Shown here piece by piece: positions 7,249 to 12,454 of a DNA stretch of 64,000 bases. The first letter of the stretch is position 1, and every line of letters begins with the position of its first letter. The position numbers and the translations under genes were made by a program. Below the pieces are notes generated by a model. It saw nothing but the letters and a program-made list of their open reading frames with translations, did not search any database and was not told the DNA's origin. The stretch covers positions 1,056,001 to 1,120,000 of the forward strand of contig CAWFOU010000001.1 of assembly GCA_963817525.1 (NCBI GenBank), given 5' to 3'. The DNA comes from an uncultured archaeon (GTDB lineage Archaea; Thermoproteota; Nitrososphaeria; Nitrososphaerales; Gagatemarchaeaceae).

Positions 7249-7485
7249 TCACTCTGCGTATCTGACGGGGGCCGCGGCGGCCTCCACGAACTCGATCCTC
7301 CGCTTCTCCTTGGCCACCCACCTCACCGTTATCGAGCCCTGGATCTCGAGGTCGAGGAGCGCCTTGTTCAGCTCGTGGACGGAGTAGCCGCCGGACTTTT
7401 CGAGGATTGTGAGCAGCTCTTCGTCCGTCGCGTGCTTCTTCTCCTTGACCAACTCGTAGACGGCAAAACGCAGCGGGGGCTTCAA
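7249..7485 (-). CDS. Small winged-helix protein
   Basis: ELNKALLDLEIQGSITVRW wHTH pattern. Confidence 0.7.
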   Translation of the reverse strand: MKPPLRFAVYELVKEKKHATDEELLTILEKSGGYSVHELNKALLDLEIQGSITVRWVAKEKRRIEFVEAAAAPVRYAE

Positions 7486-7565
7486 ATCTCTAACAACACT
7501 CTATGCGGGCTGATACCTTAGGACGACCTCCGGGACTCTGGCCCGGGTTATAAAGCTTCGAGGCC

Positions 7566-7822
7566 GTTGGTGTGCGTCTTCGGGAGATGACGCGGATTGG
7601 CGCTTTTATCATGAACCAAGCCACTCTCCCATGCGAGTGACTCGCATCGGAGGCCGCCGAGGTTCGTCGGTTTCCGTCCTTCTACCCTGTGGAGGTGACT
7701 CTTCATGGTAGAGGCGAGGAAGGGCTTGCAGGTGAAGCAATGGTACAGGAACGGGTCTGGTAGCCCTAATCCTGAAAGTCGATGCAAGCAAGGAGCGCCG
7801 TCTCCTGATGACGCGCCAGAAC
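7566..7822. mobile_element. MITE-like element with imperfect terminal inverted repeats and 7-bp flanking direct repeat; may encode a structured RNA
   Basis: Left end gttggtgtgcgtcttcgggagatgacgc pairs with right end gcgccgtctcctgatgacgcgccagaac; CGAGGCC at 7559-7565 and 7823-7829; nested internal stems; no credible ORF. Confidence 0.65.
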
Positions 7823-7834
7823 CGAGGCCTTGTG

Positions 7835-8119
7835 TCAGACCTTGAGTTGGCTCGACATCCTGCTCACGCCCATCAGGTCTGACTGGGTCACGAGAGGAGC
7901 CTTTGCGACCGCCTGCTCCACCTTGTCGACCATGCCATCTTCCTCTGGGGCGATGATGTCTATTATGAGCGCGTACAACCCGAAGGCGATCGGGTCGACC
8001 TTGCTGCCCTTCAGCTGCATCTCCTTCCCGAGGACACTCTTCACAGAATCTAGAAGGCTGTCTGACGGGATCTCGGGGCCCGACGGCATCACTTTCACGC
8101 GAACTACGTAGGATCCCAT
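7835..8119 (-). CDS. ef1b: Translation elongation factor 1-beta
   Basis: VKVMPSGPE...DPIAFGLYAL; ATG at 8119 (ORF track over-extends). Confidence 0.92.
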   Translation of the reverse strand: MGSYVVRVKVMPSGPEIPSDSLLDSVKSVLGKEMQLKGSKVDPIAFGLYALIIDIIAPEEDGMVDKVEQAVAKAPLVTQSDLMGVSRMSSQLKV

Positions 8120-11717: not shown

Positions 11718-11767
11718 ATCGAACGTTGCCCCGCTTCAAAAGAGGAAGATAAGTCTTCGGGTTTCGG

Positions 11768-12454
11768 GTTCTGGCGCGTCTTAGGGAATGAGGTTTTTCG
11801 AGGTAGGGGTGGTGCAAGTCGGGAGATGCTCACGCCACGTCCCCAAAAAATCACGCAGCATTATTGAAACGACCACCCTAACCCATGAAGGGGTGCGGAA
11901 ACCACGGTCCTATTCCGACAGGAAGAGGATTCGACGGAGAGAAATCTACCTGGCCGAACACCGCCGGGGCGGGGACGGAAGAGGCGACTATCTCGTAAGA
12001 ATAGACACCATAAGGCACAAGGAAGGTTATAGTGGACAGACTCTGATTGTTTGCGTGGGAAACTTCGTCCTCGGGCCATGGAAGAATCGTTGCGTTCGGG
12101 GGATTTGATTCGGTCAAGTTCCCTACGGCGCCGTTCGAGAGCCTGATGCTCCAAGGGACCCAACCCAATGTGTAGTGACCCCCCCAGAGGTCTTCTTGGA
12201 TGAAAGTCAATTCATGTAACCCCGCAGCGGAACTTGAACTTGCCGTTCGAGAGTAGGTGGTTGTTGTCGTTGTCTCCGTCCTTGACAGGTCGGTGGATGC
12301 GGAAGTCAGCGAGCCGAGCAGCAGGAAGGTAGACAGGAAGGTGAAGCTGACAGTCAGGATGCTCATGGTCCTTGAACGCATCACAGTCCTACCGGATTCT
12401 TGGCAACTGCCTGCTTAATTAGGGCATTCCATCTGATTCCCTCGAGGCCCAAGT
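11768..12454. mobile_element. Putative cargo cassette 1: conserved left end (11768-11829) and right end (12408-12454) around one gene
   Basis: Both ends match the ends at 42547-42609 and 42936-42982; lower GC than flanking genes. Confidence 0.55.
11878..12384 (-). CDS. Hypothetical secreted/surface protein (cargo gene)
   Basis: Hydrophobic N-terminus, Thr/Ser-rich linker, then beta-rich domain (LTFIQE..WSIRLSN..TITFLVPYGVYSYEI); atypical codon usage. Confidence 0.6.
   Translation of the reverse strand: MMRSRTMSILTVSFTFLSTFLLLGSLTSASTDLSRTETTTTTTYSRTASSSSAAGLHELTFIQEDLWGGHYTLGWVPWSIRLSNGAVGNLTESNPPNATILPWPEDEVSHANNQSLSTITFLVPYGVYSYEIVASSVPAPAVFGQVDFSPSNPLPVGIGPWFPHPFMG

What the first reader, a model, noticed from the sequence alone, without database searches (positions are those of the whole stretch)
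7559..7829. 257-bp GTT...AAC element with 7-bp target-site-like duplication and fully nested fold
Seen: CGAGGCC flanks both sides (7559-7565, 7823-7829). The ends form a ~28-bp imperfect inverted repeat, and the reverse complement of 7810-7823 (ggttctggcgcgtc) is identical to 11767-11780, tying it to the cassette family. Internal stems nest: 7594-7604/7762-7772, 7617-7622/7723-7728, hairpin atgcgag-tga-ctcgcat (7631-7647), and a long stem 7679-7714 capped by a GUGA tetraloop. A TTATAAA box lies at 7548-7554. Inference: an ORF-less member of the family (MITE), and possibly a transcribed structured ncRNA. SRP, RNase P and tRNA hallmarks were not found.
Basis: partly seen in the sequence, partly recalled or inferred. 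Interest (0 to 1): 0.72.

Follow-up and report, generated by a model that had tools for sequence, protein, structure and literature searches.

The report
Gene-less transposon carrying TnpB guide RNA
The 258-bp element is a miniature, gene-less copy of an archaeal insertion sequence that still carries the guide-RNA scaffold of the RNA-guided nuclease TnpB, and its family unexpectedly has the inverted-repeat ends and 8-bp target duplications of IS6-type transposons.

Summary
Window 7566-7823 (+) is an ORF-less element with imperfect terminal inverted repeats and a flanking direct repeat. It lies between the ef1b stop codon and the promoter of the next gene. In 21 of 23 relatives the same junction is only about 31-140 nt, so those sites are empty.

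It is not SRP RNA, RNase P RNA or any Rfam family. Its 3' 176 nt are the omega-RNA (guide-RNA scaffold) and right end of a TnpB-only insertion sequence that is common in this archaeal genus. The structure has strong covariation support: 98% of cells paired, and 18 of 29 pairs with compensatory changes. A covariance model built from it hits directly 3' of seven TnpB genes in the same genome. The 5' part is the IS left end, with an internal TATA box and a remnant start codon.

The family departs from IS200/IS605:
- Its ends are GGYTCTG inverted repeats with 8-bp target duplications.
- These are the features of the IS6-family DDE elements in the same genomes.
- No Y1 TnpA was found in this genome.
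- Insertions lie at a fixed distance from a TATA-like box followed by TT (32 sites).

The likely mechanism is inferred, not shown. IS6 transposases mobilise the element in trans, and the omega-RNA, guided by the right flank, serves a TnpB made elsewhere.

The parts
7548..7559 (.). Host sequence TTATAAAGCTTC. It is the TATA box region of the promoter of the - strand ORF 7249-7485. It also matches the family's preferred target motif ATWTAA-N3-TT-N, which lies directly 5' of the duplication.
   Evidence: The same box is present at the empty sites of relatives. The motif comes from 32 insertion sites.
7560..7567 (.). Left copy of the target-site duplication: GAGGCC exact, and GAGGCCGT if counted as 8 bp.
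7566..7823 (+). The whole non-autonomous element, 258 bp, with no ORF.
   Evidence: Boundaries come from the family alignment and the duplication. Only short frames with stops are present. A soil-metagenome contig is identical across both junctions.
7566..7593 (+). Left terminal inverted repeat, with a degenerate tip: GTTGGTGT against the family's GGYTCTGG. Its continuation GCGTCTTCGGGAGATG is shared with the left ends of TnpB insertion sequences in the same genome.
7604..7611 (+). Internal TATA-like box TTTTATCA. It is homologous to the TTATATC box that lies about 25-30 nt upstream of the tnpB start codon in full-length copies.
   Evidence: Left ends compared. Promoter function is inferred.
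7631..7647 (+). Remnant ATG at the position of the tnpB start, which is the expected transcription start region, together with a local hairpin ATGCGAG-TGA-CTCGCAT.
   Evidence: Related ORF-less copies have an analogous hairpin.
7648..7823 (+). TnpB omega-RNA scaffold, which is also the IS right end. Helices:
- H1 7653-7658/7666-7671
- variable hairpin 7679-7714
- P2 7724-7735/7779-7789
- P3 7746-7750/7770-7774
- P4 7753-7755/7764-7766
- P5 7792-7796/7813-7817
   Evidence: Model R1 scores 138.7 bits here, E 1.9e-28. 27 of 29 consensus pairs are intact in the window copy. Covariation is; coordinates are.
7661..7665 (+). H1 loop GGUUC, the proposed pseudoknot partner of the 3' end GAACC (7819-7823).
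   Evidence: 98.2% of cells are paired, with one compensatory change and four single-sided changes that keep pairing, over 23 copies. The pairs are mostly invariant, so support is weak.
7796..7823 (+). Right terminal inverted repeat. It ends ...GACGCGCCAGAACC, whose reverse complement is GGTTCTGGCGCGTC, an IS6-type tip.
7824..7843 (+). Right copy of the duplication (GAGGCC, then TT) and the predicted guide segment GAGGCCTTGTGTCAGACCTT. It overlaps the ef1b stop codon at 7835-7837.
   Evidence: In all 23 copies sequence conservation stops at ...AACC. The guide's only match in the genome is its own flank. The guide role is inferred.
7835..8110 (-). Flanking host gene for elongation factor 1-beta (ef1b).
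   Evidence: PF00736, E 5e-14. It is conserved in 41 of 41 genomes searched.
7249..7485 (-). Flanking host ORF of 78 aa, with no Pfam match. It is conserved next to ef1b and FEN1 throughout the genus.

Best explanation
Window 7566-7823 is a miniature, ORF-less deletion derivative of a roughly 1.2-1.36 kb TnpB-only insertion sequence. The family is abundant in this archaeal genus.

The element keeps three things:
- the left end, with the IS's internal TATA box and a remnant start codon;
- the complete omega-RNA scaffold, which in full-length copies overlaps the last codons of tnpB;
- the right end.

Shown:
- homology to the TnpB 3' end and right end;
- the covariation-supported RNA structure;
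- the species-specific insertion, with short junctions in relatives, eight of which I read and found to lack the element;
- family-wide GGYTCTG inverted-repeat tips and 8-bp target duplications, identical in kind to co-resident IS6-family (DDE_Tnp_IS240) elements;
- a phased target motif (TATA-like box, 3 nt, TT, 1 nt, then the duplication).

Inferred:
1. Elements of this family, including this one when it inserted, are moved in trans by IS6-family DDE transposases rather than by a Y1 TnpA.
2. The element is transcribed from its internal promoter into an omega-RNA whose guide is the adjacent flank (7824 onward).
3. A TnpB made by a full-length copy, for example the one on contig C11, could load this RNA and cut copies of the site that lack the element. 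These would be TT-flanked and match the guide. Cutting would favour retention or spread by recombination.
4. The degenerate left tip and the 7-of-8 duplication suggest that this copy is old and may no longer move.
For: Not a known RNA:
- There is no Rfam hit at the gathering score or at E up to 10.
- SRP RNA and RNase P RNA lie elsewhere in the genome.

Homology to TnpB elements:
- Relatives' matches lie directly 3' of ORFs with the PF07282 TnpB domain (E 5e-16 and 4e-15).
- Those ORFs read through the conserved motif. The window keeps frameshifted remnants of that reading.

RNA structure:
- Over 23 copies, 98.2% of cells are paired, against 24-43% when the partners are slid.
- 18 of 29 pairs show compensatory changes, and 0 of 500 shuffles reach the observed values.
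- Model R1 finds 13 places in the own genome. Seven are immediately 3' of TnpB domain hits.
- The model finds the family in 18 of 22 genomes of the same genus.

Empty sites:
- The junction is 352 nt in the window and about 31-140 nt in 21 of 23 relatives.
- In the 8 short junctions whose sequence I read, the element is absent.

Target duplications:
- 9 of 22 copies have perfect 8-bp repeats and 6 more have 6-7-nt exact repeats.
- 14 of 39 further copies have them, nine at 8 of 8 and five at 7 of 8.
- In the own genome there are two perfect 8-of-8 cases and one 7-of-8 case.

IS6 link:
- Four DDE_Tnp_IS240 elements have GGYTCTG tips and 8-of-8 duplications.
- Their tips match TnpB-IS or miniature-copy tips over 11-13 nt.
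- The own genome has 10 PF13610 matches and 0 Y1_Tnp matches.
- Passages of the IS6 review PMC7986276 give an 8-bp repeat, a GG tip and a cTGTt motif as the family's hallmarks.

Trans use of omega-RNAs from gene-less elements is proposed in passages of PMC10055086.

A cognate-family TnpB in the own genome (contig C11) is 69% identical to a relative's TnpB.

In the family to which I assign the window copy, the IS6-like ends are a feature of gene-bearing as well as miniature copies. Full-length TnpB copies such as L022 and L029 have GGCTCTGG or GGCGCTGG tips and perfect 8-bp duplications.
Against: - No transcript of this copy was seen. The only RNA-library evidence is one 152-nt contig of a 92%-identical relative, and that could be DNA carry-over.
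- No empty allele of this exact species was found in the four runs laid.
- The window's scaffold subtype (GGUACAGGAA loop and helix) occurs only in ORF-less copies among the sequences I hold. No matching TnpB is identified, and cross-use of another subtype's TnpB is untested.
- The left tip differs from the family consensus at 4 of its first 8 positions, and the duplication is not a clean 8 bp.
- Many copies show no duplication: 7 of 22 and 20 of 39. Five further exact 8-mers were dropped as doubtful.
- Three genomes with the RNA family have no PF13610 match: G003, G011 and G021, which are 69-84% complete.
- Only 2 of 24 fetched DDE loci gave resolvable ends under my filter.
- Mobilisation by IS6 transposase rests on likeness of the ends, not on an assay.
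Confidence: 0.8

Rival explanations
1. It is an ordinary IS200/IS605-type palindrome-associated element (PATE). A Y1 TnpA would move it by single-strand peel-and-paste. The flanking CGAGGCC would then be a pre-existing repeat in the spacer rather than a duplication.
For: - Gene-less IS605 derivatives that carry omega-RNAs are known (PMC3119063 passages; PMC10055086 passages).
- Both ends can form local hairpins.
- With the element removed and no duplication assumed, the spacer CGAGGCCGAGGCC matches the closest empty site CGAGAGCGAGGCC at 11 of 13 positions.
Against: - The family shows perfect, copy-specific 8-bp direct repeats at many independent sites.
- It has true terminal inverted repeats that extend beyond the hairpins.
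- No Y1_Tnp was found in a 95%-complete genome.
- IS200/IS605 elements are described as lacking both features (PMC13565253 and PMC3119063 passages).
- With one duplication copy removed, the spacer length (11-12 nt) fits the relatives' 10-14 nt.
Confidence: 0.05
2. It is an inert fossil. The element did insert as described, but it is now neither mobile nor expressed. Its good fold would only be inherited from the parent IS.
For: - The left tip is degenerate.
- The duplication is 7 of 8.
- Two of 29 scaffold pairs are broken.
- No transcript of this copy was seen.
- No TnpB of the matching scaffold subtype is among the sequences I hold.
Against: - 27 of 29 pairs and all 5 pseudoknot pairs are intact.
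- The R1 score of 138.7 bits lies within the range of TnpB-linked copies.
- The internal TATA-like box is kept.
- ORF-less copies of this subtype persist in at least six genomes of the genus.
- An RNA-library contig of a 92% relative ends exactly at the scaffold's end.
Confidence: 0.3
3. It is a host-owned or domesticated structured RNA. Examples would be an omega-RNA recruited to guide a nuclease-dead TnpB-like repressor, or an unrelated regulatory RNA of the ef1b / FEN1 region.
For: - It is a single copy of its exact sequence in the genome.
- It folds strongly.
- It sits beside a conserved promoter.
Against: - It is absent from the 8 relatives' junctions whose sequence I read, and the junction is short in 21 of 23.
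- The predicted guide matches only its own flank: no other site has 2 or fewer mismatches in 16 nt.
- It has transposon ends and a duplication.
- No Rfam family matches.
Confidence: 0.04

Closest known systems
PATEs (palindrome-associated transposable elements), the gene-less derivatives of IS200/IS605 / IS1341 elements that carry omega-RNAs
   Same: Both are ORF-less. Both arise by internal deletion of a TnpB insertion sequence. Both keep the right end with the omega-RNA scaffold and would need TnpB supplied in trans (passages of PMC3119063, and PMC10055086).
   Different: PATEs have no terminal inverted repeats and cause no target duplication. This element and its family have both, and no Y1 TnpA was found in the genome.
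IS1341-group TnpB-only insertion sequences and their omega (right-end) RNA
   Same: - The parent elements encode only TnpB (PF07282).
- The RNA overlaps the 3' end of tnpB and ends at the transposon boundary.
- The flank would serve as guide.
- A T-rich dinucleotide lies next to the target.
Recalled, not from a call: ISDra2-type omega-RNAs also have a pseudoknot near the guide.
   Different: The ends are IS6-like inverted repeats with an 8-bp duplication. The guide would therefore begin with the duplicated target bases. The candidate TAM lies 5' of the left duplication copy, not directly at the left end.
IS6 (IS26) family insertion sequences and their rare MITEs
   Same: - GG tip and a CTGT-like motif in the inverted repeats.
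- 8-bp duplication.
- Co-resident DDE_Tnp_IS240 elements whose tips are identical over 11-13 nt.
- The review lists two MITEs, of 227 and 336 bp.
   Different: - Canonical IS6 members are about 0.8 kb and encode the DDE transposase.
- Only one passenger-carrying member is listed, and TnpB is not mentioned in that review (0 occurrences).
- Here the cargo is TnpB plus omega-RNA, or the omega-RNA alone.
- Insertion shows a phased TATA-like/TT motif that the four DDE-only elements examined do not show.
TnpB lineages linked to DDE transposases (IS630, ISL2, IS1031) and eukaryotic Fanzor in TIR/TSD transposons
   Same: An OMEGA module rides in a transposon with symmetrical ends and target duplications (passages of PMC13565253, and PMC10691335).
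   Different: - Those cases have the DDE gene next to tnpB in the same element. Here tnpB is alone between IS6-type ends, and the transposase lies elsewhere.
- IS6 is not among the families named in the passages I read. The whole words IS6 and IS26 have 0 occurrences in the main text of PMC10691335.
- Its figures and supplements were not available to me.

Membership tests
TnpB omega-RNA (OMEGA right-end RNA) | Lies at and overlaps the 3' end of tnpB and stops at the transposon's right boundary. | tested here: met
   Met in relatives and in the own genome. Seven of 13 R1 hits abut PF07282 hits. Relatives' TnpB ORFs read through the motif. Conservation stops at ...AACC in all 23 aligned copies. 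The window copy itself has lost tnpB.
TnpB omega-RNA (OMEGA right-end RNA) | Conserved secondary structure. | tested here: met
   98.2% of cells are paired. 18 of 29 pairs have changes on both sides. 0 of 500 shuffles reach the observed values, and slid controls give 24-43%. The window copy keeps 27 of 29 pairs.
TnpB omega-RNA (OMEGA right-end RNA) | Transcribed, bound by TnpB, and guides cleavage of a TAM-flanked target. | not testable with these tools
   The only evidence is a 152-nt RNA-library contig of a 92% relative that ends at 7823.
MITE (non-autonomous element with inverted-repeat ends) | Terminal inverted repeats related to those of a transposase-encoding element. | tested here: met
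   The ends match at 20 of 28 positions. The right tip GGTTCTGG equals the tips of DDE_Tnp_IS240 elements. The left tip is degenerate.
MITE (non-autonomous element with inverted-repeat ends) | Target-site duplication and an empty site in relatives. | tested here: met
   GAGGCC is exact, and 7 of 8 positions match under the 8-bp rule. The junction is short in 21 of 23 relatives, and the 8 short junctions I read lack the element.
MITE (non-autonomous element with inverted-repeat ends) | Too short to encode a transposase. | tested here: met
   The element is 258 bp. The only + strand frame from the remnant ATG gives 26 aa.
IS200/IS605 PATE | No terminal inverted repeats, no target duplication, and a Y1 TnpA available in trans. 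| tested here: not met
   Inverted repeats and 8-bp duplications are family-wide. There are 0 PF01797 matches in the own genome, which is 95% complete.
IS6 family (as a non-autonomous derivative) | 8-bp direct repeat, and inverted repeats with a GG tip and a CTGT-like motif. | tested here: met
   Met at family level: set against the review's definition. For the window copy, the right end is met, the left tip is degenerate and the duplication is 7 of 8.
IS6 family (as a non-autonomous derivative) | Mobilised by a DDE_Tnp_IS240 transposase. | not testable with these tools
   Transposase genes are present: 10 matches in the own genome and 18 of 22 genomes of the genus. Three genomes with the RNA family show none.
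Archaeal SRP RNA / RNase P RNA / other Rfam families | Match to the family's covariance model. | tested here: not met
   No hit in the window at the gathering score, nor at E up to 10 over 7300-8100. The genome's SRP RNA (93.5 bits) and RNase P RNA (183 bits) lie on another contig.

The most novel reading that the evidence does not exclude
A lineage of archaeal TnpB/omega-RNA modules has changed vehicle, from Y1-driven IS200/IS605 elements to non-autonomous IS6-type elements moved in trans by DDE transposases.

On this reading:
- The omega-RNA has adapted to the new ends. Its 3' pseudoknot strand GAACC is the IS6 inverted-repeat tip itself, and the guide begins with the 8-bp target duplication.
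- Insertions are placed, or survive only, at a fixed distance from a TATA-like box with a TT next to the duplication. Every insertion then creates a guide against its own TT-flanked empty site.
- That would allow homing between chromosome copies.
- Gene-less miniatures such as the window element act as extra guide genes.
Probability: 0.4. Interest if true: 0.78.

Novelty: new variant of a known kind. Interest (0 to 1): 0.62.

Why it matters
TnpB is the ancestor of Cas12. Its accepted role, restoring a scarlessly excised IS200/IS605 element, depends on the Y1 transposase choosing the same motif that TnpB reads. A recent review notes that OMEGA modules are rarely linked to DDE transposons in prokaryotes, and it asks how target duplications can be reconciled with TAM recognition.

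This genus offers a natural case with many independent insertions:
- tnpB plus omega-RNA, or the omega-RNA alone, sits between IS6-type ends;
- the duplications are 8 bp;
- the target context is phased, with a TATA-like box and then TT.

That makes the question testable with simple assays, and it gives compact archaeal TnpB/omega-RNA pairs with defined scaffold boundaries.

For annotation, it explains a class of 250-470-bp structured 'orphan' elements beside promoters in these genomes.

Tried and rejected
- SRP RNA, RNase P RNA (types A and T) and tRNA were rejected.
- 'Single-copy element' was rejected at family level. The DNA search listed only the window copy. tblastn and model R1 then found 12 further family members in the same genome, so one search's first-look filter had missed them.
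- A hammerhead or C/D-box reading of the CUGAUGA and GAAA strings had no Rfam support.
- A pre-existing spacer repeat in place of a target duplication was considered, because of an 11-of-13 match to one relative's spacer. I judged it less likely once the family-wide 8-bp duplications were seen.
- A right end for the IS6-type tip at window 11767 was sought within about 3 kb and not found.
- Reads:
  - No contig joined across the element (no empty allele) in the 4 runs laid. X2 covers only the right junction.
  - The RNA-library contig is from a 92% relative and cannot show transcription of this copy.
- My filter resolved the ends of only 2 of 24 fetched DDE loci.
- Supplements and figures of PMC10691335 and PMC3119063 could not be seen. 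They may already list a DDE branch of TnpB with IS6-like ends.
- Literature searches:
  - 'TnpB' with 'IS6 family' gave 7 papers, none relevant by title or abstract.
  - No paper I read describes TnpB between IS6-type ends.
Full report
**1. The observation**

- CGAGGCC at 7559-7565 and at 7823-7829;
- TTATAAA at 7548-7554;
- an imperfect inverted repeat at the two ends, 20 of 28 positions by my hand count;
- the hairpin 7631-7647;
- the stem 7679-7714.

The 257-nt stretch folds far better than shuffles on both strands. The + strand gives -112.7 kcal/mol (z -4.24). The - strand gives -100.5 kcal/mol (z -4.18). None of 200 shuffles reaches either value. There is no ORF of note.

**2. What it is not**

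- Rfam gives no hit in the whole window at gathering scores.
- In 7300-8100 at E up to 10 there is only a chance snoRNA hit outside the element.
- ARAGORN finds no tRNA.
- The genome's SRP RNA (93.5 bits) and RNase P RNA (183.2 bits) lie on another contig.

**3. What it is**

A DNA search of 40 relatives matched only window 7711-7810. Matches were in 10 of 22 genomes of the same genus, often in several copies, and in none of the 18 other genomes.

Reading the flanks of those matches showed two things. Most sit directly behind a coding sequence with CxxC...CxxC and DRDVNAALN. All copies stop being alike right after ...CAGAACC.

The upstream ORFs carry the TnpB domain PF07282 (E 5.4e-16 and 4.3e-15). 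They read through the conserved motif...GLAGEAV.GNGT..LILRVDASKL. The window keeps GLAGEAMVQE and LILKVDASK in two different frames.

This is therefore the region where a TnpB gene overlaps its omega-RNA and the transposon's right end. The window copy has lost the gene.

**4. The RNA**

I aligned 23 copies, from the first hairpin to the right end.
- RNAalifold predicts 29 pairs, 17 with compensatory changes.
- Counting on that structure gives 98.2% of cells paired, against 24-43% with slid partners.
- 18 pairs have changes on both sides, and 0 of 500 shuffles are as high.

A covariance model (R1) finds 13 places in the window's own genome.
- Seven lie immediately 3' of PF07282 hits, including TnpBs only about 30% identical to the relatives' proteins. 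That is an independent check that the model describes the TnpB-linked RNA.
- Six, including the window (138.7 bits), have no adjacent TnpB.

The remaining 8 of the 15 PF07282 loci above cut-off have no R1 hit. They presumably use other scaffolds.

R1 finds the family in 21 of 41 genomes searched: 18 of 22 of the genus and two other genera.

The window copy keeps 27 of 29 pairs.

The invariant H1 loop GGUUC (7661-7665) can pair with the invariant 3' end GAACC (7819-7823). Over 23 copies this pseudoknot is 98% paired, with one compensatory change and four single-sided changes that keep pairing. That is suggestive only, because the 3' end is also the transposon tip.

They are not supported.

**5. 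The insertion**

The gene order FAD-oxidoreductase, ef1b, 78-aa ORF, FEN1 is kept through the genus.

The distance from the ef1b stop to the start of the 78-aa ORF is:
- 352 nt in the window;
- about 31-140 nt in 21 of 23 same-family relatives that have both genes in the fetched locus;
- 1304 nt in G017 and about 403 nt in G024.

I read the junction sequence of 9 relatives. Eight are short. In seven of them the TATA box and AGCTTC- or AGCTTCG-like bases are followed after 10-14 nt by the ef1b stop codon. L059 reads ACTCTTCGGGG and L060 shows no such box. None of the eight holds the element.

The TTATAAA box at 7548-7554 is thus host promoter DNA.

A soil-metagenome contig is identical over 7435-8026 and so spans both junctions. 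No contig skipped the element.

**6. Ends, duplications and the link to IS6**

Full-length relatives are 1.32-1.36 kb. The three full-length subfamily copies in the own genome are about 1.2 kb.

Searching upstream for the bases that follow ...AACC gave these results for 22 copies:
- a perfect 8-nt direct repeat abutting the other end in 9 copies;
- a 6-7-nt exact repeat in 6 more, including the window (GAGGCC; 7 of 8 as GAGGCCGT against GAGGCCTT);
- nothing in 7. One of those, L024, had a mis-set end in that run.

In 39 further copies (40 fetched, one skipped for lack of flank), the results were:
- 14 had such repeats (nine at 8 of 8 and five at 7 of 8) next to a tip at least 5 of 8 like their own other tip;
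- 5 exact 8-mers beside unlike sequence were dropped as doubtful;
- 20 had none.

In the own genome:
- a second miniature copy, C1:344534-344789, joins the left end and first codons straight to the omega-RNA and has a perfect 8-bp repeat;
- of the three full-length copies of a subfamily, one has 8 of 8, one has 7 of 8 and one has none.

The ends are true inverted repeats with GGYTCTG tips.

The same tips and perfect 8-bp repeats bound four elements that encode DDE_Tnp_IS240 (PF13610), the IS6-family transposase:
- two in the own genome (E 1.1e-14 and 2.7e-13);
- two in relatives. Only 2 of 24 fetched DDE loci were resolved there.

Tip identities between DDE elements and TnpB or miniature elements reach 11-13 nt.

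The own genome has 10 PF13610 matches and no Y1 TnpA.

The IS6 review gives an 8-bp repeat, a GG tip and a cTGTt motif as hallmarks. It knows two MITEs and one passenger gene, and it never mentions TnpB (passages). Reviews state that IS200/IS605 elements and PATEs lack inverted repeats and duplications (passages).

I therefore read the family as non-autonomous IS6-type elements with TnpB/omega-RNA as cargo. This is inferred from the ends, not shown by an assay.

**7. Target context**

The 12 nt 5' of the left duplication copy form a phased motif, ATWTAA-N3-TT-N.
- The first set has 18 sites.
- It is reproduced in 14 new sites.
- Combined over 32 sites: A at -8 in 28, T at -9 in 26, T at -3 in 24 and T at -2 in 22.
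- TT at both positions is seen in 12 of 18 and in 7 of 14.

At random genome positions TT occurs at 3.8% and WTWTAA at 0.02%.

In 10 of 18 sites a mechanical - strand ORF starts 17-62 nt beyond the box. This includes the window, so the box looks like the TATA box of a gene that points away from the element.

Generic TTAWAW sites in the genome have A at the matching positions in only 29% of cases. The TT is thus enriched beyond promoter context, and it is a candidate TAM.

The four DDE-only elements do not show the motif in phase. That sample is small.

In G017 a different 1.2-kb element with GATTCTG tips and an 8-bp duplication sits in the same spacer, at the same distance from the box. This hints that the distance rule belongs to the insertion machinery.

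I cannot explain the box phasing.

**8. How the window copy would work**

Its left end aligns with the left ends of TnpB copies in the same genome. This includes the TATA-like box (7604-7611 in the window) that lies about 25-30 nt before their start codon. An ATG remains at 7631.

Transcription from there would give the scaffold followed by the flank GAGGCCTTGTGTCAGACCTT. That flank matches nothing else in the genome at 2 or fewer mismatches in 16 nt. This is as expected for a transposon guide and not for a recruited regulator.

At a site without the element, the same bases would follow ...GCTTC, that is TT-N.

A TnpB of the family is encoded on contig C11. It is a full-length copy at a contig edge, 69% identical to a relative's TnpB.

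The window's scaffold subtype occurs only without a gene in what I hold, so compatibility is open.

Expression is not shown. One RNA-library contig and one DNA contig from other soil studies are 92% identical to the scaffold and stop exactly at 7823.

**9. Comparison and novelty**

Gene-less IS605 derivatives with omega-RNAs are known and are thought to use TnpB in trans.

TnpB beside DDE transposases (IS630, ISL2, IS1031) is reported as rare. In the passages and main text I could read, IS6 is not named.

I rate the window element a new variant of a known kind. The family-level features may be new: IS6-type ends, a guide that starts with the duplication, and phased promoter-side insertion.

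Noticed in passing
L053 (G017) about 226-1470, the junction orthologous to window 7486-7834: The closest relative has a different 1.2-kb insertion in the same spacer. It has inverted-repeat tips GATTCTGAACGAT and an 8-bp duplication CGCAGAGG. It carries a 245-aa Thr/Ser-rich ORF with a hydrophobic N-terminus and has no R1-type RNA. It lies at the same distance from the TATA box as the window's element.
   Followed up: partly
window 11767-12418: GGTTCTGGCGCGTCTTAGGG, an IS6-type end tip identical over 14 nt to the element's right tip, opens a roughly 650-nt non-coding stretch between the L15e gene and the next ORF. No matching second end or duplication was found within about 3 kb. A similar tip lies at C1:734819 of the genome.
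   Followed up: partly
G000 C1:344534-344789 (- strand), outside the window: A second miniature copy, 256 bp. The left end and about 35 tnpB codons are fused directly to the omega-RNA region, with a perfect 8-bp duplication AGACCAAC. It is a clear example of how such miniatures arise by internal deletion.
   Followed up: yes
G000 C7:658454-659289, outside the window: An 836-bp element with 40-bp inverted repeats that equal the TnpB-IS left end (GGCTCTGGTGCGTCTTAGGGAGATAGGCCC...) and a perfect 8-bp duplication GTTCGGAC. It has no R1 hit. It appears to be built from two left ends.
   Followed up: partly
G000 C7:465011-468102 (locus L100): A 3.1-kb IS6-type element with an 8-bp duplication. Beside a SWIM-plus-DDE_Tnp_IS240 transposase it carries a 363-aa ORF with weak GmrSD_N and HNH matches, which may be a passenger gene.
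   Followed up: no
L069 / L032 (G021 C8:22978-23144): In G021 an ORF-less copy of the window's scaffold subtype lies on the other side of ef1b, between ef1b and the FAD-oxidoreductase gene. The surroundings of ef1b have thus been hit independently in three species: the window's genome, G017 and G021.
   Followed up: no
window 7661-7665 with 7819-7823, and all 23 aligned copies: The invariant hairpin loop GGUUC is complementary to the invariant 3' end GAACC, which is at the same time the IS6-type inverted-repeat tip. This may be a pseudoknot that ties the RNA scaffold to the transposon end.
   Followed up: partly
G000 C8:66489-66840: A 352-bp ORF-less copy (R1 146.8 bits) with good GGCTCTGGTAAC / GGTTCTGGCAAC tips but no recognisable duplication. 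It still lies beside an ATTTAAGGCTTG box.
   Followed up: no
L075 (G024, another genus of the family): The ef1b-to-78-aa-ORF gap is about 403 nt here, against 31-140 nt in most relatives. I did not examine what fills it.
   Followed up: no
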